DNA from: a virus
Taxonomy: Duplodnaviria > Heunggongvirae > Uroviricota > Caudoviricetes
Length of the DNA stretch: 11,138 bases
Reading direction: 5' to 3' (one strand)
IMG/VR virus record: IMGVR_UViG_2617270964_000013
Both the position numbers and the translations under genes were made by a program. Position 1 is the stretch's first letter. Every line of letters begins with the position of its first letter. The notes below the pieces were generated by a model, which had not been told where the DNA came from, did no database searches, and worked only from the letters and a program-made list of their open reading frames with translations. Shown here piece after piece: positions 1 to 11,138 of this stretch.

Positions 1-465
1 CATTTGGAAGAAACGGTAAAACAGGCCGCTGGAGCGATGCAGAAAAGTGCAAACGGTGGTGATATTCAGAATGTGGCCGCTTTCAGAAATGCCCTTCAGC
101 TTGGTACGGCGGCACTGGCCTCTATGGGAGTGGGAAAAAATCAGGTATTGAGTGCATCAGATTTCTCTTTCTTCGCCGGTGGAAATGGCTATTTGTATAT
201 TCCTTGTCTTGCAACCACAGATAATCCGGTAAAGATAATGCTGCAGTGGGGAACCATACGGACACGCGGCGGAGAGAATAATATCTACAACCTGCCCTAT
301 GCATTTCCAACCGCAGGTCTGTGGGCTATGGGATGCAGAGCAGCGAATGGCTACAGCCAGTCAATGAATGTCAGTATAGAAAATCGGTCTCAAATCAGGA
401 TCCAAAACTGGGCGCCAGCAGGGGCGGTAGAAGATTGCTGTTTCTTCGCTGTGGGGTATTTATGA
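1..465 (+). CDS. Tail fibre protein, C-terminal variable (receptor-binding) part; 5' end lies upstream of the window
   Basis: Frame 1 is open from base 1 to the TGA at 463-465 (the track's start at 4 is a TTG, not a real start). The translation shares a short motif with the opposite-strand cassette at 1276..1845 (FRNALQLGTAAL here, FREALNLGNAAL there). It is immediately followed by a tail-fibre assembly gene with an ATGA stop/start overlap. Confidence 0.75.
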   Translation, partial: HLEETVKQAAGAMQKSANGGDIQNVAAFRNALQLGTAALASMGVGKNQVLSASDFSFFAGGNGYLYIPCLATTDNPVKIMLQWGTIRTRGGENNIYNLPYAFPTAGLWAMGCRAANGYSQSMNVSIENRSQIRIQNWAPAGAVEDCCFFAVGYL

Positions 466-878
466 ATAAATTTTATCAGGGTGTTTTTTATCCGGAAGCA
501 CTTAAAGATGCCTATGTTTCTGCCGGAACGTGGCCGGAACATGCTGCCGATGTGAGTGATGAGGCAATGGCTGTTTATAGCCAGTACCCACCGGAAGGGA
601 AAATGCTGGGAACGGATAATAATGGTTATCCTGTGTGGGTTGACATCCCCTCCCTGTCGCCTGAAGAACGAGTTGCCCGGGCTGAGCAAACACGACGTGA
701 TTTACGTACGCGGGCGGATTCTGAAATAGCCTGGCGACAGGATGCTGTTGACGCGGATATCGCGACGGATGAGGAAACCGCCGCGTTGTCTGAGTGGAAG
801 AAGTACCGGGTACTGTTAATGCGGGTTGATACAGCAAAACCCGTATGGCCTACACCTCCGGGGGAACAGGCCAGTTAA
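462..878 (+). CDS. Tail fibre assembly chaperone (Tfa; P2 gpG / Mu U family)
   Basis: ATG at 462 overlaps the fibre stop (ATGA). The C-terminus LSEWKKYRVLLMRVDTAKPVWPTPP is the hallmark Tfa C-terminal motif. The track's longer ORF from 321 would overlap the fibre gene in another frame, so the 462 start is preferred. Confidence 0.85.
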   Translation: MNKFYQGVFYPEALKDAYVSAGTWPEHAADVSDEAMAVYSQYPPEGKMLGTDNNGYPVWVDIPSLSPEERVARAEQTRRDLRTRADSEIAWRQDAVDADIATDEETAALSEWKKYRVLLMRVDTAKPVWPTPPGEQAS

Positions 879-1272
879 TATGCTCAGGGTTGGTTGTCAC
901 ATCAACCGCCTTAACTTCATTCTTATACGCCAGCCATGCCGACAGTTTAGCTCTGTTGGTGTCGCTGATTTCATCCAGCATTAGTTCCGTTCGCCAGTCG
1001 AGCATTACCGCGTCAGCATGAGTCAGCAGCTGTTGGCGCACCTGTTCAGCAATGGTGATCAATTCTTCATGGGTGGGCGGCGGGATATCACCCCATGCAG
1101 GCAGGCCGTCACTGCCTGCAACTCTCATTTTCCCTGCTGGCGGCACCTGGAATTCGGAGAAAGTATCGTCATCCACCTCAACGCCATTCTCCGGCCATGT
1201 TCCGGCAGCAATATATCTGTCTTTCAATGCGAGAGGGAAAAAACACTGCGTTTTGTTGTCAAATATGTACAT
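850..1272 (-). CDS. Alternative tail fibre assembly chaperone (Tfa') inside the invertible segment
   Basis: 140 aa ending LSAWLAYKNEVKAVDVTTNPEHINWPVPP, the same Tfa C-terminal signature. Its 3' end overlaps the + strand Tfa 3' end (850-878), the tail-to-tail arrangement typical of Mu G / P1 C / e14 P segments. Confidence 0.85.
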   Translation of the reverse strand: MYIFDNKTQCFFPLALKDRYIAAGTWPENGVEVDDDTFSEFQVPPAGKMRVAGSDGLPAWGDIPPPTHEELITIAEQVRQQLLTHADAVMLDWRTELMLDEISDTNRAKLSAWLAYKNEVKAVDVTTNPEHINWPVPPEV

Positions 1273-1275
1273 ACA

Positions 1276-1845
1276 TTATCTCCCTATAGCTAAAAACCGG
1301 GCGTTAACCTGTCCCGCTGCGGCAAGGACAGGAATATTTCCAGACTGCGCGTAAAAGGCGTTCCATGAGAATTGGTCGTTCCATTCCCCATTTACCACCG
1401 TATAAGCCTGGTAGGTTCCTGCCACCTGAAAACCACACACAATGACCATTAAGCATTCGTTTGGAAAGGGTATCGGGAACTTTGAAACGGTTGTACGCCG
1501 GTCTTCACATGGTGTGTTTCCCCATTGAAGAATTAGCCCACCAGGAAGATACTGATAGCCATTCACTTCTTGATTAGATAAAAATGCAGACATATCAGGC
1601 AATTGCCCTTGCCCGGTTCCTGTGTTTTTTAATGCCGCGTTACCCAAATTCAGGGCTTCTCTGAAGTTTTCAGCCTCTACTCTTTCACCGTTAACACCTG
1701 CTTTCAAGGAAAGCAGGTAAGTAATGGCATTCTGGCTCATGACGTCTTTAACTGAATCTCCTCCGCTCTGAAGAACCCTGCTTTTTGCCGCTTCTCCCAA
1801 ACCAACGTTTAAGAAAATGCAGAGATTACGGCTAACTGGCATCAT
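1276..1845 (-). CDS. Alternative tail fibre C-terminal cassette (Sv'-type), promoterless, expressed only after inversion as a fusion to the constant fibre N-terminus
   Basis: 189 aa ORF immediately upstream (on the - strand) of Tfa'. It shares the FRxALxLGxAAL block with the + strand fibre C-terminus but is otherwise diverged. The frame is open only 3 codons upstream of the Met-Met (stop at 1855-1857), which fits a crossover point at about 1848-1849. Confidence 0.7.
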   Translation of the reverse strand: MMPVSRNLCIFLNVGLGEAAKSRVLQSGGDSVKDVMSQNAITYLLSLKAGVNGERVEAENFREALNLGNAALKNTGTGQGQLPDMSAFLSNQEVNGYQYLPGGLILQWGNTPCEDRRTTVSKFPIPFPNECLMVIVCGFQVAGTYQAYTVVNGEWNDQFSWNAFYAQSGNIPVLAAAGQVNARFLAIGR

Positions 1846-1861
1846 CCCCGGTTTTTATTCA
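1836..1861. promoter_or_regulatory. Candidate 26-bp invertase crossover site (gix/hix/cix-like), right end of the invertible segment
   Basis: CTGGCATCATCC-CC-GGTTTTTATTCA. The outer half GGTTTTTATTCA matches the recalled Hin/Gin-family half-site GGTTTTTGATAA at 9 of 12 positions; the inner half overlaps the Met-Met codons of the Sv' cassette and is less conserved. The partner site is not in the window. Confidence 0.4.
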
Positions 1862-1872
1862 GGGGATCCATC

Positions 1873-2472
1873 ATGCTTATTGGCTATGTCCGCGTATCAA
1901 CAAATGACCAGAATACAGAATTGCAGCGTAACGCGCTGGAGTGCGCAGGATGTGAACTGATTTTTGAAGATAAAATCAGCGGAACGAAATCAGCCAGACC
2001 GGGATTGAAAAAACTGCTCAGAACGCTATCAGAAGGAGATACGCTGGTTGTCTGGAAGCTGGACAGACTGGGCAGAAGTATGAAACACCTGATCACGCTT
2101 ATTGAGGAATTGCGGGAAAAAGGTGTTAATTTCCGTAGTCTGACGGACAGCATTGACACATCAACACCCATGGGGCGTTTCTTTTTTCACGTCATGGGAG
2201 CTTTAGCCGAAATGGAACGTGAATTAATTGTAGAGCGTACACTGGCCGGGCTGGCAGCAGCACGCGCACAAGGACGCATTGGCGGACGTCGCCCGAAGTT
2301 GACAAAAGAACAACACGAGCAAATAGCGAGGCTGATTAAAAACGGTCATGACAGGAAACAACTGGCGATCATTTACGACATCGGCATATCGACGATTTAT
2401 CGTTATCACCCTGTAGGCGATATACAGGCTGAAGAAACAACCAGGCAGACTCAGGAAAATGAAAACCGCTAA
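1873..2472 (+). CDS. Site-specific DNA invertase, small serine recombinase (Gin/Pin/Cin/Hin family)
   Basis: 199 aa beginning MLIGYVRVSTNDQNT, with the catalytic Ser in the YVRVSTNDQ motif, conserved VVWKLDRLGRS and GRIGGRRPKLT blocks, and a C-terminal HTH region. GGGGA RBS 6 nt upstream of the ATG. By analogy with Hin/Gin, a Fis-dependent recombinational enhancer would sit in the first ~150 bp of the coding sequence; not verified here. Confidence 0.92.
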   Translation: MLIGYVRVSTNDQNTELQRNALECAGCELIFEDKISGTKSARPGLKKLLRTLSEGDTLVVWKLDRLGRSMKHLITLIEELREKGVNFRSLTDSIDTSTPMGRFFFHVMGALAEMERELIVERTLAGLAAARAQGRIGGRRPKLTKEQHEQIARLIKNGHDRKQLAIIYDIGISTIYRYHPVGDIQAEETTRQTQENENR

Positions 2473-2491
2473 TCTGACCATTAGCGGTTTT
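2462..2491. terminator. Bidirectional intrinsic terminator between the convergent invertase and gpU genes
   Basis: Perfect inverted repeat AAAACCGCTAAT / ATTAGCGGTTTT (12-bp stem) around a 6-nt loop CTGACC, with A/T runs on both sides. The invertase stop codon lies inside the stem. Confidence 0.55.
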
Positions 2492-2498
2492 GCGTTAA

Positions 2499-2993
2499 TC
2501 AAAACAGCCCTTTAACGGAGCTGGCCGCGCTGTTAAGGGATGATGTGACCTTATCTTTGAAGCCGGACAGCATATCACTGAACGATGAGGATTGCAGGCG
2601 CTCCCGCAAATCCTCATCACAGCGTTCAAGAGTCAGTGAAAATTCTATCTTTTTCGCCTTACCGTAGCGATCAAACTCGGAGCGGGTCGTATTCGTTCCG
2701 GTCAGGACATACATGCCGTAAATCTGCCCGACACCATCAATCAGAGGCCAGGGGCGTCCTGTATATGCCTGCGTGGTCAGCAACGAAAGCGACACTTCGC
2801 CACCTGTAATTTCAGGATAAAGCACGCCGGAAAGCACGATGCGATCATCACCTGCGCCGATATACTGCCAGCTTGCTGAACGGTTAACGCGTTCATTTTT
2901 CACATGCCGCCAGCTTTTGTTTTGCTGTAACTGCTGATGCGGCAATGTGCGCAGCTCAAAAACAAACATGCCGTAGATCATCATCATGGCCAT
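2499..2993 (-). CDS. P2 gpU-like tail protein
   Basis: 164 aa ORF starting 6 nt after the tape-measure stop, with GAGGAG just upstream. Its size and position directly after T match P2 gene U. The start could be any of several clustered Met codons (2979-2993). Confidence 0.7.
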   Translation of the reverse strand: MAMMMIYGMFVFELRTLPHQQLQQNKSWRHVKNERVNRSASWQYIGAGDDRIVLSGVLYPEITGGEVSLSLLTTQAYTGRPWPLIDGVGQIYGMYVLTGTNTTRSEFDRYGKAKKIEFSLTLERCDEDLRERLQSSSFSDMLSGFKDKVTSSLNSAASSVKGLF

Positions 2994-2999
2994 GACTCC

Positions 3000-5816
3000 T
3001 CAATCTTTATCGTAAAAACTGCCACGTCCGGCACGGTCGCGTCGTTCCAATTCTGCCCTGACCATTTCACCGACCAGTTTCGCCAGTTCGCGGGGATTCT
3101 GCGTAACAACGTTATGCAGATGAACATGAATTTCACCGCCAAATCCGGAGACAACAGGCTCCCGGTTACGGGAAGTTGCAGGAACTGATGCCACTGGCGA
3201 TCGTATGGCCTCCGCCACCGGGCGGGAGCTGGCCGCAACAACAGGGACCAGCGCCGGAGGCAGAGGAGTCGGGACCACGGGTGTGATGTTGATTGCGGAA
3301 GCAGGCTTACTGACCTGCGCAATCTTCCGCTCCTGCCACTCCCCACGAACAGCAAGTGCGCGGGGCAGATTCTTAAAGACAATATCGCCGGGGCCAATGC
3401 GTTTTTTCGTCTCATCAACCAGCTTACCTGTGTTATCAGCAATTTTGCTGAGTCTGCGTAGCGTACCGGTATTGCTGTCTGTGAGCGGTTTGTTGTCTTT
3501 GGGTTTATCACCTCCGGTGCCATTGCCATTTTCCACAGGCTTCGGCGGATTGATTTTCGCCAGGTCCCCCTGAAGCAAGGCAACCTTGTCCTGAAGAATG
3601 GCCGCACGCTGTGCGTCTTCGATTTTCTTGCGCGCCCTTTCCGCTTCATCCGGAAGGACGCCAAGTTTTTCAAGTATCCACGCCAGCGTATCCAGTAGCA
3701 TTTTTGCAGGCGTCAGAACAAGTTGTAACGCACCGCCAAGAACGTTACCGAATATCTCGCCAGCACTGGTACATTTATCCAGCGTTTCCTTGCTGGACTC
3801 CATCGGTGACAACAGCGATTTAAACCAGTTAAACACCTGGCTGATCCCGCTTCCGATTGCGTCAAAAACAGGACCAAACCGTTCAAAGGTTTCGCGCAAC
3901 GGGGTCAGCCTTTCCATAATCCCGCTGAACACCCCGGCAAAAAATGCCTTAATGGGTTCCCAGTATTTCCAGATGAGAACCGCCGCAGCCACAAACGCAG
4001 CAGCAATCAATCCAACCGGACTGAACAGCGCCCCGATAGCGCCTCCCAGCAAAGAAACAGAACCCGTCAGCATTCCCCACAGCGCAGGCAACACCCGGAC
4101 GACATTCATTGACCGGGTAAGAATGTCAAAACCAAGACGCAGGGTGGCCAGCTTTCCGTAAAGCACCCCAATAACCAGCGACAACGAGCCAATCGTTGCA
4201 GTCATTGCCAGCAACGCACCGCCTGCTATCAGTAGCTGGCGCGTCAGTACCGGATGGGCCTGCGCCAGCGAGGTGATTTTTTCAAGCACCCGCGTGAGCC
4301 ACTGCGTGACAGAACGCAGCGGACCGTCAACCAGATCACTGATGCGAATACGAAGACCTTCCCATGCGCTGTCGAGATTTTTCAGGTCCCCATCAAGATT
4401 ATCGGCCATTACTTTTGCAACGCGATCGGCCTCTCCCCTTGCCCCCTGCAATTCTCTGGTCAGTTTTTGCAGCTCTCCTGAACCAGCCGCCGCAACAAGC
4501 GTCTGTAAACCAACGAACGCCTCTTCTCCGGCGATGTCCTTGAAGAAGGAAATCTGGTCCACCTGTCCGTATTTTTGTGTCGCCTTATAGAGATCAAGCA
4601 GCACATCCTCCATCGGGCGCATTTTGCCTCTGGCGTCAGCAACTGACACCCCCAGCTCTTTCAGTGCATCAGCCGCAGCTTTTGGCGGTGATGCAAGGCG
4701 GGACAGACTTGCGCGCATGGCCGTACCAGCATCGCTTCCGCGAAGACCATTATTGGCAAGCATCCCGGCCATGGCCGCCGCTTCTTGAAGACTGATACCA
4801 AGTTTTGCGGCAACCGGACCGGTATACTTCATGGTTTCGCCCAGCGCGCGTAAATCAGTATTGGTCCGGGTGAATGCTGCTGTCAGCGTATCGCCAACCC
4901 GGTCCATTTGATCGGCTGTCAGGTTGAACTGTGTGAGGATATTGGAGCCTATATCAGCCGTCTCGCCGAGTTCGACGCCACCTGCCAGCGCCATATTAAG
5001 AACACCGGGCAATGCGGCCTGAATGGCCTGCGGAGTAAAACCAGCCATTGCCAGAAAGCTCTGCCCACTGGCGGCATCACTCGCAGTAAACTGTGTTTCA
5101 GAACCAAGTTTTAACGCCTGCTCACGCAGCGCCTTAAACTGCGGGCTGTTTTTGTCGATTCGCGTCAGAGCCTGAACGCGGGACATCTCTTTCCCGAACC
5201 CGATCGCAGGCTGCAAAAAACGCCCGGCAGCATAGCCGCCAGCCGCTGCCGCACCAATTGCCAGCGCACCACCTGTTTTCAGTTTTCCCGCGGTTTCCTG
5301 CGCGCGCGAATACCGCTCACGCGCCCGCGTTACACGCGCAAGCGCCTGCCGTTCGCGTTCAAGCTGGTTGTTGTACTGTTCGGTGCGTCTGATGGCCTGC
5401 TGGATGGTGTTATCGCTGCCTGTCAGGGAAATGCCGTGGCGTTTCAGCTCTCCGCCAAGTTCCCGCATTTTCTGAATTTCCCGTGTGCGCGATTCATTCA
5501 GGCGTTCAAGCCGGGTGCTTAACTGCTGCATCAGCTTTTGTTGTTTTTCGCTGAGCACTGTACCCGTGCGTTGTAACTGATTAAGGGCGTTAAGCTGGCG
5601 TCGTGCTTTCACGATGCCCGCATCCGCTTTACTGACAGCGTCACGGGCGCGCTCAAATGAACGCGCCTGACGCTCGAGATTTTTGATCGCCCCCTGCGTT
5701 CGCTGGATGGAGTCACCAAACTGCCCCATCAGGCGGCGGGCGTTTTCGGCAGGCCGGGTCAGCCTGTCAACGGCGCTGAAAGCGACCCGGATATCAAGAG
5801 TCTTCATTGTCTGCAT
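3000..5816 (-). CDS. Tail tape measure protein (P2 gpT-like)
   Basis: 938 aa. Long coiled-coil-like, Ala/Leu/Arg/Gln-rich N-terminal third, hydrophobic Gly/Ala-rich central segments, and a position between E/E' and U. Its start is overlapped by the E' reading frame. Confidence 0.85.
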   Translation of the reverse strand: MQTMKTLDIRVAFSAVDRLTRPAENARRLMGQFGDSIQRTQGAIKNLERQARSFERARDAVSKADAGIVKARRQLNALNQLQRTGTVLSEKQQKLMQQLSTRLERLNESRTREIQKMRELGGELKRHGISLTGSDNTIQQAIRRTEQYNNQLERERQALARVTRARERYSRAQETAGKLKTGGALAIGAAAAGGYAAGRFLQPAIGFGKEMSRVQALTRIDKNSPQFKALREQALKLGSETQFTASDAASGQSFLAMAGFTPQAIQAALPGVLNMALAGGVELGETADIGSNILTQFNLTADQMDRVGDTLTAAFTRTNTDLRALGETMKYTGPVAAKLGISLQEAAAMAGMLANNGLRGSDAGTAMRASLSRLASPPKAAADALKELGVSVADARGKMRPMEDVLLDLYKATQKYGQVDQISFFKDIAGEEAFVGLQTLVAAAGSGELQKLTRELQGARGEADRVAKVMADNLDGDLKNLDSAWEGLRIRISDLVDGPLRSVTQWLTRVLEKITSLAQAHPVLTRQLLIAGGALLAMTATIGSLSLVIGVLYGKLATLRLGFDILTRSMNVVRVLPALWGMLTGSVSLLGGAIGALFSPVGLIAAAFVAAAVLIWKYWEPIKAFFAGVFSGIMERLTPLRETFERFGPVFDAIGSGISQVFNWFKSLLSPMESSKETLDKCTSAGEIFGNVLGGALQLVLTPAKMLLDTLAWILEKLGVLPDEAERARKKIEDAQRAAILQDKVALLQGDLAKINPPKPVENGNGTGGDKPKDNKPLTDSNTGTLRRLSKIADNTGKLVDETKKRIGPGDIVFKNLPRALAVRGEWQERKIAQVSKPASAINITPVVPTPLPPALVPVVAASSRPVAEAIRSPVASVPATSRNREPVVSGFGGEIHVHLHNVVTQNPRELAKLVGEMVRAELERRDRAGRGSFYDKD

Positions 5817-6323
5817 TCCCGCTGCGAAGTGCCGCCCGCTCGCGCCAGCTAACCACTTCGCCGGGCGTCATCATGAAGATTTCGGCGGGCGACCAGTTAA
5901 AAATGGCGGCAATATCCGCCACCAGATCTTCGATGTGCTCAAAGCACACAACCGTGATCAGGCTTCCGTCGCCTGTTCGTTCTTCCCGCCAGAGTCCGCA
6001 CCGCTCAAAAAATTTACGGCAACCACACATAACTGAATAAAGTCACGGGATGCCATTTTTTTGATCGTCACTTCATCCAGTCGCGGTGATGTCACGCGTG
6101 ACAGCAGCGTAAACATGGATTCCGCTTTCAGATTCAGCACATCAGACAGCGACAAATCTCGCAGAGATCCAGCCTGCTCAATAGCCCCGGTGATCTCCAC
6201 ATACGTGATTTTTTCGCCGCCTCGCTCAATTGGTTGGGTAAGTTTTACGCCACGCTCACTGGTTTCTTTCACAGTGTCAGTAACTACCGTGTTTTCGGTA
6301 TCGATGTTTTTCGTCTCTTTCAT
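5794..6323 (-). CDS. E+E' tail chaperone made by programmed -1 translational frameshift
   Basis: On the - strand the E frame reads GTA AAT TTT TTG AGC (..VNFLS..). A -1 slip on T TTT TTG enters the overlapping frame (..KFFERCGLWREERTG..), which stays open to the TGA at 5794-5796 and overlaps the T start at 5816. Confidence 0.7.
5958..6323 (-). CDS. Tail assembly chaperone E (P2 gpE-like)
   Basis: 121 aa ORF with an AAGGAG RBS 7 nt upstream of the ATG at 6321-6323. It lies between the tube and tape-measure genes and contains the slippery heptamer near its 3' end. Confidence 0.8.
   Translation of the reverse strand: MKETKNIDTENTVVTDTVKETSERGVKLTQPIERGGEKITYVEITGAIEQAGSLRDLSLSDVLNLKAESMFTLLSRVTSPRLDEVTIKKMASRDFIQLCVVAVNFLSGADSGGKNEQATEA
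6006..6012 (-). promoter_or_regulatory. Slippery heptamer T TTT TTG (recoding signal for E/E')
   Basis: Read directly on the - strand; the same heptamer is used in the P2 E/E' frameshift. Confidence 0.7.
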
Positions 6324-6377
6324 CAGGAAACTCCTTTCAGTCAGAGGCGACGCACTGCGCCGCCTGCATATTACTTA

Positions 6378-6890
6378 TCAGCCAAGCCCAAGCGCGGAAC
6401 GGATGCGATCAGGCACAATATCCTTGCCGTCCTTCCGGTAAATGAAGTTCAGCAGGTCAATCTCCCACAACGGACGATCGTTAACACTCAGCTTGTAGTA
6501 GGTGTTTTTAATGGCGTAAGTGTGTGATGTGGCTTCGCCCTGTTTGGCTTCCCCCATATCAATTTCCGTCACACGTCCGCGCATTTCGACTTCATACAGG
6601 TCGCTTTCTGCATCGGTGTAGTATTCACCCGCAAAACGCAGCAGCGTGCCGTCAATCGTGCCGCCATACTTAAGGAACAGCTCACGAACTGCGCCCCCCA
6701 TGACAAAGCTCGCATCAAGCGCGGAGTCGTCCAGACCGAGATCAATACTTACCGCACCCATCATGCCGCCACCCCGGTAGCTGTCGGTTTTGCGCGTCAG
6801 CTTAGGCAGAGTGACGGACGTCACCTTACCCACTTCGTTTTCACCATCCACAAACAGCGTAAAAAAGCGAAGATGTTTTGGCACAGCCAT
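6378..6890 (-). CDS. Tail tube protein (P2 FII-like)
   Basis: 170 aa. The motif VTLPKLTRK...YRGGGMMG...DLGLDD is typical of the P2 FII tube family. The ATG overlaps the FI stop (TGATG), with GGGAGG 6 nt upstream. Confidence 0.88.
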   Translation of the reverse strand: MAVPKHLRFFTLFVDGENEVGKVTSVTLPKLTRKTDSYRGGGMMGAVSIDLGLDDSALDASFVMGGAVRELFLKYGGTIDGTLLRFAGEYYTDAESDLYEVEMRGRVTEIDMGEAKQGEATSHTYAIKNTYYKLSVNDRPLWEIDLLNFIYRKDGKDIVPDRIRSALGLG

Positions 6891-8074
6891 CAGGCACCTC
6901 CCAGCACCGCAAATGCGGGTTCAAAGTATTCATCAGTAAACGTCTGGTAAAGCTCCATGTCTTCCAGCGGGGGAACAGGCGTATATTTGTAGCGAATACG
7001 CACACGCCCCTGACGTAAATCCGTGGTGCTGTTATCCACCACGTCATACCAGCACTCCGCGCCAATCAGTTTCCCGGCAGTAACCAGTGAATCCAGTTTT
7101 GCCCTGATGGCACTGATAACATCCTTCACGTTCGCAGGCGTCAGTGGACTGTCGATGGTTTCAAACTGCGCTTCCGCAATTGAATCAGCCAGCACCTGTG
7201 CGGTTCGGGTATACACCTCAAAGATGTAGGCGTTCGTTTCCGGTGTGCGGTTGCCCCAGAAGCGGAACCCGTTGCGACGAATAATGGTCGTGATTTCTTT
7301 GTTGTTGAGGCTGTTGGCATCGCTGTCTTCGGCCTGCAACGACCAGAACACATGCCTCGACATCCCCAGCACATTTTTAACCGGAACGTTGGACAGTGAT
7401 TTGTGCCATCCCTGCTCATGGTCAATGTACGCACGAAGGCCGCACGCATAGGCAGACGCGGGGAACGTTTCGTTTTTGCCACTTTTCGGGTTGTAGGCGA
7501 TGAAGTCCGGCCATAAGAGCATCACCTCACGTTCGTTGAATTTCTGGCGGTAGGTAATCGCCTCAGCCATCGTGTTACAGCCGTGACATGAGGCATACAC
7601 AAACGCGCGCAGTTTACCTGCAATCACGCACAGGGATTTTGTTACAGCCTCCGTGTCCAGCTCCGGCGCGGCCAGAATACGCGGACGGTATCCGATGCTT
7701 TCATCCTGCTCTGCAACAAGCAGCGCATACATCCCCGTATAGCTGCCGTCATCCTCAGAACCACCGATAACCAGTTGATCCTGCGTCTTTCCGTCTTCTT
7801 CTTTGTGTTCAGCCACGCGAACGACGATCACCTTTGTGCTCACCTGGTCTGCGATGGCCTTAAGCGCACGATAAAGCGTCCCCGTTGTCCCGCATTTTCC
7901 CAGCACGTCATTGACGCGGGTCAGCAGTGTTGGCTTGTTCAGCGGGAACAGCTTCGCGTCCGCATCATCCGCCGTTGCCACGATACCGATAACACTGGAA
8001 TCAACATCGTTAATCGCTGTTACCAGGTCGGTATTTTCCGTAACACGGGCACCATGAAAACGAGTTTCACTCAT
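6890..8074 (-). CDS. Contractile tail sheath protein (P2 FI-like)
   Basis: 394 aa with P2 FI-like blocks (FPLNKP, LRAFVYAS, EQGWHKSLSNV, IRRNGFRFWGNRT, YKYTPVPPLE). First gene of the - strand tail operon. Confidence 0.9.
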   Translation of the reverse strand: MSETRFHGARVTENTDLVTAINDVDSSVIGIVATADDADAKLFPLNKPTLLTRVNDVLGKCGTTGTLYRALKAIADQVSTKVIVVRVAEHKEEDGKTQDQLVIGGSEDDGSYTGMYALLVAEQDESIGYRPRILAAPELDTEAVTKSLCVIAGKLRAFVYASCHGCNTMAEAITYRQKFNEREVMLLWPDFIAYNPKSGKNETFPASAYACGLRAYIDHEQGWHKSLSNVPVKNVLGMSRHVFWSLQAEDSDANSLNNKEITTIIRRNGFRFWGNRTPETNAYIFEVYTRTAQVLADSIAEAQFETIDSPLTPANVKDVISAIRAKLDSLVTAGKLIGAECWYDVVDNSTTDLRQGRVRIRYKYTPVPPLEDMELYQTFTDEYFEPAFAVLGGA

Positions 8075-8231
8075 AGCTTCAGCCCCTTGTATCCGTTAAA
8101 TGATTCGGCAACAATCATCACCCACCACGCGCGTAATCTCACCCCTGCGCCATTCTCCCGCCACGGCGACAACAAAAAGCAGTAACCCCCTCCGCACGCA
8201 CATGCGACCATGCCACACAGGGAGGGAGCAG
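8075..8231. promoter_or_regulatory. Divergent intergenic region between the FI operon and gpD; presumed late promoters
   Basis: 157 bp between two divergent start codons. No canonical Ogr box TGT-N12-ACA was found by eye, so this is inferred from position only. Confidence 0.3.
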
Positions 8232-9329
8232 ATGACCGACACCACCATGCAATTGCTCAGTCAGGGCACAGACCCCGTGAAAATGCCGGATTTTGATATT
8301 CTCGCGGAGGGTAAAACGCTGTCAGGCGTGGCAGAGCGCCTGATGAGCCTGTCACTGACCGACAACCGGGGATTTGAGGCGGACCAGCTCACCATCACGC
8401 TGGATGATGCGGATGGTCAGTTGCAGCTACCGCCACGGGGCGCGCGCCTGACGGTTCTCATTGGCTGGAAAGGAGAACCGCTGACAGAAAAAGGCACTTA
8501 CATTGTTGATGAAATCGCTCACGAAGGACCGCCGGACAGGCTGACTGTTTCAGCCAGAAGCGCAGATTTTCGGGATGAATTTAACGTTAAACGTGAGGTG
8601 TCCTGGCATGATGTGACCGTTGAGCGTGTGGTATCCGCCATCGCTCATCGGTACGGTCTGAAACCGCAAATCAGCGAAATGCTGATGGATATCGAAATCG
8701 ACCACGCCGACCAGACCGAAGAAAGCGACATGTCCTTCCTTACGCGCATGGCGGAAATGTTGGGCGCAATCACCACGGTAAAAAGCGGTAATCTGTTATT
8801 CATCATGCCAGGCGGTGGCGTGAACGCACAGGGCCAGCCGTTGCCATCGTTCGCCATCACGCGCAGCAGTGGCGATCGCCATCAGTTCCGCATTGCTGAC
8901 CGCGAAGCGTATACGGGGGTACGCGCTTACTGGCTTGATCTTAATTACGGGAAAAAGAAAAAAGTCAGCGTGAAACGCCGCAAACCGAAAAAGGAGAAAA
9001 GCAGCAGTCGGGAAGGCGATTATATGGAAGGTGCGGAAGGCAACGTGTTTGTGTTACGCAAGACTTATCAGAACGAGCAGGCAGCAAGACGTGCAGCAGC
9101 GGCAAAGTGGCAGCAGCTACAACGCGGAGCCGCATCATTCTCCATCACGCTGGCGCGTGGACGCGCAGAACTCTACCCCGAAATGCATGGCACGGTAACA
9201 GGATTTAAAAGCGAGATTGATAATCAGGACTGGATTATTGCAAAAGCCGAGCACACCATTGATAACAGCGGCTTTACCACACAGCTTGAGCTTGAAGCAA
9301 AAATCCCGGAATGGATAGCAGAAACATAG
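8232..9329 (+). CDS. P2 gpD-like tail protein (late control protein D family)
   Basis: Start chosen at the ATG at 8232 (MTDTTMQLL..), which has a GGAGGG RBS 6 nt upstream; the track's start at 8100 has no RBS and is probably an artefactual extension. About 365 aa with gpD-like character. Confidence 0.75.
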   Translation: MTDTTMQLLSQGTDPVKMPDFDILAEGKTLSGVAERLMSLSLTDNRGFEADQLTITLDDADGQLQLPPRGARLTVLIGWKGEPLTEKGTYIVDEIAHEGPPDRLTVSARSADFRDEFNVKREVSWHDVTVERVVSAIAHRYGLKPQISEMLMDIEIDHADQTEESDMSFLTRMAEMLGAITTVKSGNLLFIMPGGGVNAQGQPLPSFAITRSSGDRHQFRIADREAYTGVRAYWLDLNYGKKKKVSVKRRKPKKEKSSSREGDYMEGAEGNVFVLRKTYQNEQAARRAAAAKWQQLQRGAASFSITLARGRAELYPEMHGTVTGFKSEIDNQDWIIAKAEHTIDNSGFTTQLELEAKIPEWIAET

Positions 9330-9499
9330 TGAGTAATTTAGACGTATTGACCCAGACTCAAGCTGGCACACTTATCTCCAGATTTTAATCTAACAATTGG
9401 CTCTATGCTAAATAGTGAGTTGTTAGCTAGTAGCATATTCTTCTTGGCTCATTTAAATAGTGCTTATGCACATTGAAGAATTAATGGTTAAAAATGAAA

Positions 9500-9526
9500 C
9501 AGCCTCATACAGAGGCTGTGATTTTG
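9500..9526. terminator. Bidirectional intrinsic terminator between gpD and the cargo gene
   Basis: Stem CAGCCTC / GAGGCTG (7 bp) with loop ATACA, followed by TGATTTTG on the + strand and preceded by the complement of TTTCATTTTT on the - strand. Confidence 0.5.
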
Positions 9527-9545: not shown

Positions 9546-10370
9546 TTATTCTTGTTGAAAATGAAGAGAACACTCTATAGGTGATTCTTCATTAAACTGT
9601 TCAAATAGCTCAATCATACGATAACGGCTAATTCCCACTATTGTTCCATCTTTTTTAAAAGACAAACCAATTCCAGCCAAAAGAAATGTTGACTCCAGTT
9701 CTTTTTTTAATTCTTGCCCCTTAGAGAAAAAATACATTGCACCACCACTCATTCCCTCTGGAGAAGGGCCTTTACTTACCTGTCCTTTATATTTTAAATC
9801 TATATTCTTAACATTGTATGTTCCTGTTATTTCAATTTTATTGAATGTTTTAACCTCGGATATTATAGTGAAATACTTGGCATTTTTAAAAAACAGGCCA
9901 TCTTCGTTAGAAGCTACCGTTTGATTTACTATTGAACTAGGGCGTTTTGTTCTGTGAATTGTTTGTGTTTTGCACCAGTTTTTAGGGAAGCCTGTCCATG
10001 CAAAATGTTTCTTATCAAATCCAATAAAATTGAAATTATCTTTAAGCGAGAAATAATTTTTCCCATCAAGTATCATATTAAAGCAATCGACAATGACTAA
10101 ATCATCTTCTTCAAAAATTCGATGTCCTATAGAGATACTAGTCAAAGCAAAAAATTCACCATCAGAACCCAGTATGTAAATATTTCTGATGTCATCTTTA
10201 TCCCTCAGAGCATGAGCAGCAAAAACCACATAGTGTGATTGCTTGTAATATATAAACGTTCCAGTCGATGAATAATTATAATCGCCTAGTTCATTTCGTA
10301 TGTAGAGCGGAATAACAAATTTTTGTGATTGTCTATCATAACTATCAGATTGATATTTAAAGTCAGTCAT
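9546..10370 (-). CDS. Predicted cytoplasmic trypsin-fold (S1/Trypsin_2-like) serine peptidase; AT-rich cargo gene of unknown role
   Basis: 274 aa. Motifs in canonical order: GTFIYY..HYVVFAAHAL (His53, TAAHC-like), EEDDLVIVD (Asp90, D-I-A-L-L-like), PEGMSGGAMYF (Ser208, GDSGG-like), then GTIVGI. The N-terminus is hydrophilic with no signal-peptide-like stretch. Only long ORF in the island. Confidence 0.6.
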   Translation of the reverse strand: MTDFKYQSDSYDRQSQKFVIPLYIRNELGDYNYSSTGTFIYYKQSHYVVFAAHALRDKDDIRNIYILGSDGEFFALTSISIGHRIFEEDDLVIVDCFNMILDGKNYFSLKDNFNFIGFDKKHFAWTGFPKNWCKTQTIHRTKRPSSIVNQTVASNEDGLFFKNAKYFTIISEVKTFNKIEITGTYNVKNIDLKYKGQVSKGPSPEGMSGGAMYFFSKGQELKKELESTFLLAGIGLSFKKDGTIVGISRYRMIELFEQFNEESPIECSLHFQQE

Positions 10371-10546: not shown

Positions 10547-10807
10547 ATGTTCCGTTGTCCGCTTTGTGGCGCATCTGCCCGCATCCGCACCAGTCGTCCG
10601 GAAAATGATTCAAACACTGTGCGGCAAAAGTATTACCAGTGTAACAACCTGGAATGCGGCGTATGCTTCTCAACACTGGAAGCTTTCCATAAATTCACAT
10701 CGAAACACGCCTCCGGCGTTCACTCTTCAGAAGGTATCCCGTGGCATGAGCTGCCAGCTTCACACAGGGGAAACAATCAGATGAGCTTGCCTTTACCTCA
10801 GAATTAA
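10547..10807 (+). CDS. ogr: Ogr/Delta-family zinc-finger late-gene transcriptional activator
   Basis: Starts MFRCPLCGASARIRTSR...YYQCNNLECGVCF, with Cys at positions 4, 7, 32 and 37 as in P2 Ogr. AGGGAGG RBS 5 nt upstream. Found after gpD as in P2, though separated from it by the cargo island. Confidence 0.85.
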   Translation: MFRCPLCGASARIRTSRPENDSNTVRQKYYQCNNLECGVCFSTLEAFHKFTSKHASGVHSSEGIPWHELPASHRGNNQMSLPLPQN

Positions 10808-10867: not shown

Positions 10868-11131
10868 ATGGTCGGAGGGAATACCCGAAGGCCAGATGTG
10901 GAAAGGCCCCGGAAAACATACCTGTTTAACCGAGGCCCTAACCGCATTACCTTGACAAGTGAAAGGTTAGCGCCTCTCCAGAAAAGGAGCAAGTGCTATG
11001 TCGCAAAAATCGCTTACGGCCATCACGTTCTGCGTGACGGCAATCCTCATCATCTGGATGCTGCACGGTTCACTGTGCGAAATACGGATGAGCTTCTGGG
11101 GAGCGGAGTTTGCGGCGTTCTTACAGTGTAA
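10868..11131 (+). CDS. Possible Mok-like overlapping reading frame (translational coupling frame for the hok-like gene)
   Basis: 87-codon ORF in another frame, starting upstream of and overlapping nearly all of the hok-like ORF, as mok overlaps hok. No clear RBS and no recognisable protein features. Confidence 0.25.
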   Translation: MVGGNTRRPDVERPRKTYLFNRGPNRITLTSERLAPLQKRSKCYVAKIAYGHHVLRDGNPHHLDAARFTVRNTDELLGSGVCGVLTV

Positions 11132-11138
11132 GCAGTAA
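10998..11138 (+). CDS. Hok/Gef-family-like type I toxin (small membrane peptide)
   Basis: 46 aa MSQKSLTAITFCVTAILIIWMLHGSLCEIRMSFWGAEFAAFLQCKQ. It has a hydrophobic transmembrane stretch and SLCEIR plus E-x-AAF blocks resembling Hok (KSLCEIRYRDGHREVAAF). GGAG RBS 8 nt upstream. The stop codon is the last 3 bases of the window. Confidence 0.5.
   Translation: MSQKSLTAITFCVTAILIIWMLHGSLCEIRMSFWGAEFAAFLQCKQ

What the first reader, a model, noticed from the sequence alone, without database searches (positions are those of the whole stretch)
2499..9329. Non-canonical tail gene arrangement: FI-FII-E-E'-T-U block inverted relative to fibre genes and gpD
In P2 the order H-G, then FI-FII-E-E'-T-U-D, is all co-directional. 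Here the FI-U operon is on the - strand, convergent with the fibre-invertase region and divergent from gpD, which is followed on the + strand by ogr. gpD therefore needs its own promoter, in the 157-bp divergent region where no canonical Ogr box is evident. This may be an ancient inversion of the FI-U block, perhaps at secondary invertase sites, or a distinct lineage architecture.
Basis: partly seen in the sequence, partly recalled or inferred. Interest (0 to 1): 0.45.

Follow-up and report, generated by a model that had tools for sequence, protein, structure and literature searches.

The report
Inverted tail operon of P88-like prophages
The flipped sheath-to-gpU tail gene block is real, but it is the fixed, standard layout of a large, already sequenced lineage of P2-like phages (P88, PhiSM, SEN4, KSP20) found in about a quarter of complete E. 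coli genomes, so it is ordinary.

Summary
gpU, T, E/E', FII and FI lie on the minus strand (2499-8074). They converge with the invertase gene and diverge from gpD (8232-9329, plus strand) across a 157-bp spacer.

The layout is not an oddity of this window. Phages P88, 500465-2, PhiSM, SEN4 and KSP20 share it, as does every genome locus whose sheath is at least 69% identical. These 28 loci form one clade in a sheath tree, and all 32 loci outside it are co-directional like P2. The divergent FI/D junction is contiguous in 1358 of 5426 complete E. coli genomes. A synthetic canonical U-to-D junction was found in none. The finding's own refutation criterion is therefore met.

No invertase crossover site flanks the block; the only good one is at 1792-1817. 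The spacer does hold a conserved near-canonical Ogr box (8154-8171, TGT-N12-AGA on the minus strand). This box is an exact TGT-N12-ACA in SEN4 and in a Kluyvera prophage. It lies midway between two -10-like hexamers, with the same geometry as P2's divergent PP/PO promoters.

My best reading is one ancient inversion that carried PF with it, so that the same Ogr box now also drives gpD. Interest is low.

The parts
1792..1817 (.). hix/cix-type invertase crossover site TTCTCCCAAACCAACGTTTAAGAAAA. It belongs to the tail-fibre switch, not to the FI-U block.
   Evidence: it scores 17 of 18 against the half-site consensus, and it is the only site scoring 13 or more in the window (shuffles average 0.35 at that threshold).
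1873..2472 (+). Serine DNA invertase (Hin/Gin/Cin type), convergent with gpU.
   Evidence: Resolvase N-terminal domain 6.2e-52 plus HTH_7.
2462..2491 (.). 12-bp hairpin flanked by an A-run and a T-run. It is a likely bidirectional terminator at the convergent junction.
   Evidence: terminator-like hit; folding energies -16.9 and -15.6 kcal/mol, z-scores -4.6 and -3.3.
2499..2993 (-). gpU tail protein.
   Evidence: Phage_P2_GpU 1.5e-38.
3000..5816 (-). gpT tape measure protein.
   Evidence: PhageMin_Tail 2e-56. Annotated as tape measure in P88.
5794..6012 (-). E' extension read in the -1 frame. The slip heptamer T TTT TTG lies at 6012..6006.
   Evidence: sequence; Phage_P2_GpE 2.1e-12 in that frame.
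5958..6323 (-). gpE tail assembly chaperone.
   Evidence: phrog_103 tail protein 2.3e-35. The equivalent gene in an E. coli genome is named 'phage tail protein E'.
6378..6890 (-). FII tail tube protein.
   Evidence: Phage_tube 7.5e-47.
6890..8074 (-). FI tail sheath protein.
   Evidence: three sheath domains. 100% identical to the P88 sheath.
8075..8231 (.). 157-bp divergent control region between FI and gpD.
8114..8119 (-). Predicted -10 of the FI promoter (GATGAT; GATTAT in most relatives). The predicted transcription start is near 8107.
   Evidence: conserved, and at a fixed 43.5 nt from the box centre in all members where the box was located. This is an inference; no start site has been mapped.
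8154..8175 (-). Ogr-box-like dyad TTGTTGT-N12-AGA. The core TGT-N12-AGA spans 8171..8154, with its centre at 8162.5.
   Evidence: conserved across the lineage. The pattern occurs only twice in the whole P88 and PhiSM genomes, at the P/O and FI/D regions. It is an exact TGT-N12-ACA in SEN4 and in L020.
8206..8211 (+). Predicted -10 of the gpD promoter (GACCAT; AATCAT or GATCCT in relatives). The predicted transcription start is near 8218.
   Evidence: mirror position, 43.5 nt from the box centre. This is an inference.
8232..9329 (+). gpD baseplate hub / late control D protein.
   Evidence: Phage_GPD 2e-17; phrog_52 6.9e-166. The NCBI annotation pipeline (PGAP) uses the same start in the equivalent E. 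coli gene.
9499..9519 (.). Bidirectional terminator-like hairpin after gpD.
9546..10370 (-). Low-GC accessory ORF of unknown function (274 aa) inserted between gpD and ogr.
   Evidence: GC 31-35%, and no hit in any of the four libraries.
10547..10807 (+). ogr-type late activator (zinc finger).
   Evidence: Ogr_Delta 5.1e-14.

Best explanation
The window is the tail end of an ordinary P88-like (Xuanwuvirus/Gemsvirus-type, family Peduoviridae) E. coli prophage. In the common ancestor of this lineage, one inversion flipped the segment running from the late promoter PF to the end of gpU. One breakpoint lay just downstream of the fibre/invertase region; the other lay between gpU and gpD. The layout has been fixed ever since. 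Because PF travelled with the block, its Ogr-binding dyad now lies next to gpD. I infer that this single dyad, centred about 55 nt from each of two divergent start sites, activates both the FI-FII-E-E'-T-U operon (leftward) and gpD (rightward). This is the way one activator site serves the divergent PP and PO promoters in P2. What is shown here: gene identities, layout, conservation, monophyly and prevalence. What is inferred: the single inversion event, that PF travelled with the block, and the bidirectional Ogr-dependent promoter.
For: Same layout elsewhere: it is annotated in P88 and 500465-2 at 94-96% nucleotide identity. It is also present in PhiSM, SEN4 and Serratia phage KSP20. Distribution: every genome locus with a sheath at least 69% identical has it. 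These loci come from Salmonella, Citrobacter, Edwardsiella, Enterobacter, Kosakonia, Symbiopectobacterium, Mixta, Pantoea, Erwinia, Izhakiella, Kluyvera, Trabulsiella and Serratia. Every locus at 48% identity or below is co-directional. Phylogeny: the 28 divergent-layout loci are monophyletic in a neighbour-joining sheath tree. Prevalence: the contiguous FI/D junction occurs in 1358 of 5426 complete E. coli genomes, and a synthetic canonical U-to-D junction in none of the 1413 genomes that carry these genes. Function: P88, PhiSM, SEN4 and Serratia prophage PP4 make virions (PMC5285337, PMC6456863, PMC5261728, PMC9826266), so gpD must be expressed in this layout. Promoter model: the best-conserved spacer element is GACAACAAAAA. 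TTGTTGT-N12-A[C/G]A sits at a fixed place upstream of FI, on the sheath strand, in 20 of the genome loci as well as in the phage records P88, 500465-2, PhiSM and KSP20 and in E. coli TUM1880. In the whole P88 and PhiSM genomes it occurs only twice, in the two divergent late regions. SEN4 and Kluyvera L020 carry an exact TGT-N12-ACA at that place. The two -10-like hexamers lie 43.5 nt on either side of the box centre. This matches the P2 record, where the activator core is centred at 3071.5 and the starts are at 3016 and 3127. The TGT half of the box is distal to FI, as in P2 PF.
Against: No transcription data are available, so the start sites and -10 hexamers are predictions from weak matches (3-4 of 6 positions). 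In the window itself the box has one mismatch to TGT-N12-ACA. The P/O and FI/D spacers show no overall sequence similarity, so the comparison rests on motif and geometry only. The breakpoints carry no recognisable scar, so the mechanism of the inversion is unknown. An origin by recombination between two phages cannot be formally excluded. The tree is a simple neighbour-joining tree without bootstrap support.
Confidence: 0.8

Rival explanations
1. The FI-U block is, or recently was, a second invertible segment flipped by the neighbouring Hin/Gin-type invertase at secondary crossover sites.
For: An invertase gene and one good crossover site (1792-1817) lie immediately beside the block.
Against: The boundaries 2473-2498 and 8075-8231 score only 9-10 of 18 for a crossover site, which is background level. 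No inverted repeat joins the two boundaries. None of the 1413 E. coli genomes carrying these genes has the flipped U-to-D junction, whereas 1358 have the FI/D junction. Most lineage members, such as SEN4 and the Pantoea, Erwinia and Enterobacter loci, have the layout but no invertase hit in the fetched locus.
Confidence: 0.02
2. The layout arose by mosaic recombination rather than inversion. On this view a gpD-ogr module from one phage was joined in the opposite orientation to the tail module of another.
For: P2-like genomes are mosaic, and other rearrangements of the tail modules exist, for example Asticcacaulis L038 and Smp131 (PMC3931495).
Against: gpD diverges in step with the sheath. It is 70-79% identical within the clade and 35-54% outside it, against 69-83% and 33-48% for the sheath. 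Nothing therefore suggests a foreign origin for gpD. A single inversion explains both new junctions at once.
Confidence: 0.1
3. gpD is transcribed from an Ogr-independent promoter of its own. On this view the conserved dyad serves only FI, or there are two separate overlapping activator sites.
For: The rightward -10-like hexamer is weak and variable (GACCAT, AATCAT, GATCCT). The box is only a partial dyad in the window.
Against: No sigma-70-like promoter on the plus strand was found in 7800-8500. The spacing from the box to the rightward hexamer is conserved and mirrors the FI side. P2 itself has one annotated activator site for two divergent late promoters.
Confidence: 0.2
4. The locus is a decaying prophage remnant or tailocin in which gpD is no longer expressed.
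For: Only 11 kb is visible, so head and lysogeny genes cannot be checked.
Against: All tail ORFs are intact and match P88 in length and order. Phages with the identical layout are inducible and form virions or plaques (PMC5285337, PMC6456863, PMC5261728). gpD keeps a strong RBS.
Confidence: 0.05

Closest known systems
Escherichia phage P88 (Xuanwuvirus P88), with Escherichia phage 500465-2 (Gemsvirus), Xuanwuvirus P884B11 and Citrobacter phage PhiSM
   Same: They are 92-96% identical in nucleotide sequence over about 73% of the window. Gene order and orientation are identical from the invertase to ogr, and the FI/gpD spacer is the same 157 bp (identical to the window in 500465-2).
   Different: The fibre tip and assembly genes (window 1-1780) differ. 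The cargo between gpD and ogr also differs: P88 has none, 500465-2 has another ORF, and the window has a 274-aa low-GC ORF.
Salmonella phage SEN4 (Senquatrovirus) and Serratia phage KSP20
   Same: FI-U has the same inverted orientation relative to the fibre genes and gpD, and the FI/gpD region is divergent. SEN4 has a 157-bp spacer with an exact TGT-N12-ACA box.
   Different: Sheath identity is only 56-69%. SEN4 has no invertase.
Bacteriophage P2, 186 and Fels-2 (canonical Peduoviridae layout)
   Same: The gene set is the same (FI, FII, E, E' with the T6G frameshift, T, U, D, ogr) and late control is of the Ogr type. P2's PP/PO pair is a divergent late promoter pair around one annotated activator site, with the geometry inferred here.
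   Different: In P2, FI-FII-E-E'-T-U-D is one co-directional operon downstream of H-G, and gpU and gpD overlap by one base. Here FI-U is inverted and gpD is a separate unit.

Membership tests
P2-like phage tail module (Peduoviridae) | Sheath FI, tube FII, tape measure T, gpU and gpD homologues present | tested here: met
   all five Pfam hits lie well above the gathering scores.
P2-like phage tail module (Peduoviridae) | E/E' chaperone pair made by a -1 frameshift at T TTT TTG | tested here: met
   the heptamer lies in the 0 frame at 6012..6006; the -1 frame hits Phage_P2_GpE at 2.1e-12.
P2-like phage tail module (Peduoviridae) | Ogr/Delta zinc-finger late activator encoded next to the tail genes | tested here: met
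   Ogr_Delta 5.1e-14 at 10547-10807.
Canonical P2/186/Fels-2 gene order | FI-FII-E-E'-T-U-D co-directional with H-G as one PF operon | tested here: not met
   FI-U is on the opposite strand to gpD and to the fibre genes. Searches give the canonical order for comparison.
P88/SEN4-like clade (Xuanwuvirus, Gemsvirus, Senquatrovirus and unnamed relatives) | Inverted FI-U block with a divergent FI/gpD spacer of about 157-181 bp | tested here: met
P88/SEN4-like clade (Xuanwuvirus, Gemsvirus, Senquatrovirus and unnamed relatives) | Genus assignment by whole-genome nucleotide identity (ICTV practice, from my own knowledge) | not testable with these tools
   Only 11 kb of the prophage is in the window. 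Over that stretch identity is 94-96% to P88 and 500465-2.
Ogr-dependent late promoter | Dyad TGT-N12-ACA centred near -55 (consensus as quoted in PMC3931495) | tested here: inconclusive
   There is no exact match in 8075-8231. A one-mismatch box, TGT-N12-AGA, lies at 8154-8171. It is conserved, it is exact in SEN4 and L020, and it sits 55.5 nt from both predicted starts. P2's own annotated sites are also inexact.
Ogr-dependent late promoter | Transcription start and dependence on Ogr shown experimentally | not testable with these tools
   No transcript data are available.
Hin/Gin/Cin invertible segment | Two inverted 26-bp crossover sites flanking the segment | tested here: not met
   neither block boundary has such a site; no flipped isoform in any complete E. 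coli genome.

The most novel reading that the evidence does not exclude
The inversion carried PF and its Ogr dyad to the 5' side of gpD. One shared activator site now fires two divergent late promoters. This would be a second PP/PO-type bidirectional late promoter, created by rearrangement. In phages such as P88, where ogr directly follows gpD, it would put ogr under positive feedback. It would also have opened a new accessory-gene slot between gpD and ogr.
Probability: 0.5. Interest if true: 0.25.

Novelty: already known. Interest (0 to 1): 0.12.

Why it matters
It matters little. The result helps annotation: gpD starts at 8232, not 8100, and several public records mislabel these genes. It also shows that the P2 textbook gene order does not hold for the whole family. 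A clade present in about a quarter of complete E. coli genomes carries a fixed inversion. The inferred shared Ogr box is a small, testable example of a promoter being reused after a rearrangement, but it works by a principle already known from P2's PP/PO pair.

Tried and rejected
1. Invertase half-sites at the block boundaries: only background scores, and no inverted repeats link the boundaries.

2. An exact TGT-N12-ACA in the spacer: absent. The two matches elsewhere in the window are at chance level.

3. A sigma-70 consensus promoter for gpD: none on the plus strand in 7800-8500.

4. The FI/D spacer as a duplicate of the P/O spacer: local alignment scores fall within the shuffle range in both orientations.

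5. My recollection that Fels-2 or SopE-phi has this inverted layout: wrong. Fels-2 is canonical.

6. A published description of the inversion: the P88, PhiSM, SEN4, PP4 and P2-hotspot papers do not mention it. Casjens & Grose 2016 is not held in the library.

7. Identity of the cargo ORF 9546-10370: no hit in Pfam, NCBIfam, PADLOC or PHROGs.

8. A match to the looser pattern GTTGT-N12-AGA inside the tape-measure gene (3723-3742): judged to be chance, because it is antisense and inside coding sequence.

Full report
**What is in the window**

The ORF map and family searches give the following order.
- Plus strand: a tail-fibre C-terminal segment (4-465) and a fibre assembly gene (321-878).
- Minus strand: the alternative pair of fibre genes (850-1272 and 1276-1845).
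- Plus strand: a serine invertase (1873-2472).
- Minus strand: gpU (2499-2993), tape measure gpT (3000-5816), gpE (5958-6323), tube FII (6378-6890) and sheath FI (6890-8074).
- Plus strand: gpD (8232-9329).
- Minus strand: a low-GC ORF with no family hit (9546-10370).
- Plus strand: an Ogr/Delta zinc-finger gene (10547-10807).

E' is read in the -1 frame (5794-6012, Pfam Phage_P2_GpE, E=2.1e-12). The P2-type slip heptamer T TTT TTG lies at 6012..6006.

gpD most likely starts at 8232. That ATG follows the RBS GGGAGGGAG. It is also the start that aligns with the ATG and GGAGG-type RBS of all relatives. The upstream ATG at 8100 has no RBS, and the stretch behind it is not conserved as coding.

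**Is the layout unusual?**

It is not.
- The window is 92-96% identical in nucleotide sequence, from the invertase to its right end, to Escherichia phages P88 and 500465-2, Xuanwuvirus P884B11 and Citrobacter phage PhiSM. Their annotations show the same order and orientation.
- Salmonella phage SEN4 (Senquatrovirus, sheath 56% identical) has it too. So does the partial record of Serratia phage KSP20, a phage first described in 2009 (cited in PMC9826266).
- A scan of one genome per bacterial species with the sheath protein returned 57 loci. I located homologues of J, I, invertase, U, T, E, FII, FI, D and ogr in each by tblastn.
- Every locus with a sheath at least 69% identical has the window's layout. 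These 23 loci come from Salmonella, Citrobacter, Edwardsiella, Enterobacter, Kosakonia, Symbiopectobacterium, Mixta, Pantoea, Erwinia, Izhakiella, Kluyvera, Trabulsiella and Serratia. One further contig is labelled Vagococcus and is probably contamination.
- Every locus at 48% identity or below has FI to gpD co-directional, as in P2. One of these, an Asticcacaulis locus, has the whole FI-D block turned against the baseplate genes, which is a different rearrangement.
- In a neighbour-joining sheath tree, the 28 loci with divergent FI/gpD form one clade. All 32 co-directional loci fall outside it.

**Prevalence and stability in E. coli**

- A 756-bp probe across the FI/gpD junction is at least 80% covered in a single place in 1358 of 5426 complete genomes.
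- The invertase/gpU junction is contiguous in 631 genomes. Many relatives lack the invertase.
- I built a synthetic 'canonical' junction from the last 350 nt of gpU followed by the first 350 nt of gpD. It is not covered as one place in any of the 1413 genomes that carry these genes.

The orientation is therefore fixed rather than switching. Phages with this layout are inducible and form particles or plaques: P88 (PMC5285337), PhiSM (PMC6456863), SEN4 (PMC5261728) and Serratia prophage PP4 (PMC9826266). The arrangement is fully functional, and gpD must be expressed.

**Did the invertase cause the inversion?**

I scored every 26-mer in the window against the Hin/Gin/Cin half-site consensus (taken from my own knowledge).
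- One site stands out: TTCTCCCAAACCAACGTTTAAGAAAA at 1792-1817, scoring 17 of 18. It lies where the fibre switch needs it.
- Nothing at 2473-2498 or 8075-8231 scores above 10 of 18, which is background level.
- No inverted repeat links the two boundaries.
- Most clade members have no invertase hit in the fetched locus.

An eroded ancient site cannot be excluded, but nothing supports the idea.

**How is gpD expressed?**

The convergent junction between the invertase and gpU holds a 12-bp hairpin with an A-run on one side and a T-run on the other (2462-2491). Plus-strand transcription from the fibre operon should therefore stop there. In any case it would then have to run antisense through 5.6 kb.

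An exact TGT-N12-ACA is indeed absent from the spacer. However, an alignment of 23 distinct FI/gpD spacers shows that the best-conserved element is GACAACAAAAA (8168-8178). Read on the sheath strand, this gives TTTTTGTTGTC-N-AGA, that is TGT-N12-AGA (core 8171..8154). Its left half is identical to the ATGTTGTC of the activator site annotated for P2 PV.

Several results support this element as an Ogr box.
- The extended pattern TTGTTGT-N12-A[C/G]A sits at a fixed position about 75-95 bp upstream of the sheath start. It is found there in 20 of the genome loci, in the phage records P88, 500465-2, PhiSM and KSP20, and in E. coli TUM1880. There are only about four stray matches in the other loci.
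- In the complete P88 and PhiSM genomes the pattern occurs exactly twice. One copy is in the divergent terminase/scaffold (P/O) region and the other in the FI/gpD region.
- SEN4 carries an exact, palindromic TGT-N12-ACA in both of those regions. A Kluyvera prophage carries an exact one in its FI/gpD spacer.
- P2's own three annotated activator sites are also inexact matches to the textbook consensus.

The geometry is telling. The box centre is at 8162.5. A conserved -10-like hexamer lies 43.5 nt to the left on the minus strand (GATGAT, 8119..8114; GATTAT in most relatives). Another lies 43.5 nt to the right on the plus strand (GACCAT, 8206-8211; AATCAT or GATCCT in relatives). These distances hold in every clade member where the box was located. 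They predict transcription starts near 8107 and 8218, each 55.5 nt from the centre.

In the P2 record, one activator site is annotated for both divergent promoters PP and PO. Its core is centred at 3071.5, and the mapped starts are at 3016 and 3127, again 55.5 nt on either side. I therefore infer that the FI/gpD spacer is a second bidirectional Ogr-dependent promoter region. This is inference from sequence only: the hexamers are weak, and no transcript data exist.

In the window, a hairpin at 9499-9519 and the intervening cargo gene suggest that gpD is monocistronic. They also suggest that ogr has its own promoter, as it does in P2.

**Evolutionary reading**

In P2, gpU and gpD overlap by one base, and PF lies between the fibre region and FI. 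In Fels-2 the invertase is followed directly by PF and FI.

One inversion of the PF-to-gpU segment produces both new junctions seen here. It also puts the PF dyad next to gpD. The dyad keeps the orientation relative to FI that it has at P2 PF, with the TGT half distal. This fits with the box having moved together with the block.

gpD diverges in step with the sheath, both inside and outside the clade. Nothing therefore suggests that gpD was imported from elsewhere, although module exchange is not formally excluded. The P/O and FI/D spacers share no similarity beyond the motifs, so the FI/D region is not a copy of the P/O region.

**Verdict**

The interpretation as a lineage architecture or ancient inversion is supported. 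The invertase-site idea is not supported. The 'no Ogr box' remark is literally true but misleading.

The window is another member of a well-populated, ICTV-classified group whose genomes have carried this layout in public records for years. I found no paper in the searchable library that comments on the inversion. The shared-Ogr-box model may therefore be a small new point, but it follows a known P2 principle. Interest is low.

Noticed in passing
window 9546-10370 (minus strand): A 274-aa ORF with 31-35% GC lies between gpD and ogr and has no hit in Pfam, NCBIfam, PADLOC or PHROGs. The slot is empty in P88. In other E. coli prophages it holds different cargo (DUF3800, ComF-family, other hypothetical proteins). 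It looks like a variable accessory or defence slot specific to this lineage.
   Followed up: partly
L005 (NZ_JBQPOM010000071.1, 'Vagococcus sp. WN89Y'): A contig assigned to a Gram-positive genus carries this enterobacterial prophage tail block, with tail proteins 91-100% identical to the window's. Contamination or mis-binning is the likely cause.
   Followed up: no
L067 (OR565851.1 PhiSM) 2294-4745; L002 (NC_049343.1) 12317-13558: There are annotation errors in public records. PhiSM labels gpD as 'ogr' and the sheath as 'late control gene D protein'. The 500465-2 record starts gpD at the non-conserved upstream ATG (equivalent to window 8100). P88 annotates a probably spurious 43-aa ORF inside the FI/gpD spacer.
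   Followed up: partly
window about 10998-11138; L065 12210-12350: A Hok/Gef-family toxin gene follows ogr at the prophage end. In E. coli TUM1880 the prophage end abuts ihfA-pheT.
   Followed up: no
L038 (Asticcacaulis MAG) 5846-14700: This is a different tail-module rearrangement. FI-FII-U-D stay co-directional, but the whole block converges with baseplate genes I and J. Tail-module inversions have therefore happened more than once in P2-like phages.
   Followed up: no
window 1-1872: The fibre switch region holds two alternative fibre-tip and assembly-gene pairs on opposite strands. Only the right-hand crossover site (1792-1817) is inside the window; the left-hand site must lie upstream of position 1.
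   Followed up: partly
L066 (SEN4) 9235-9254: A TGT-N12-AGA box lies inside the end of the S-like gene, about 170 bp upstream of the V-like gene. It may be a PV-type late promoter in SEN4. No equivalent was seen in P88, where the S and V homologues overlap.
   Followed up: no
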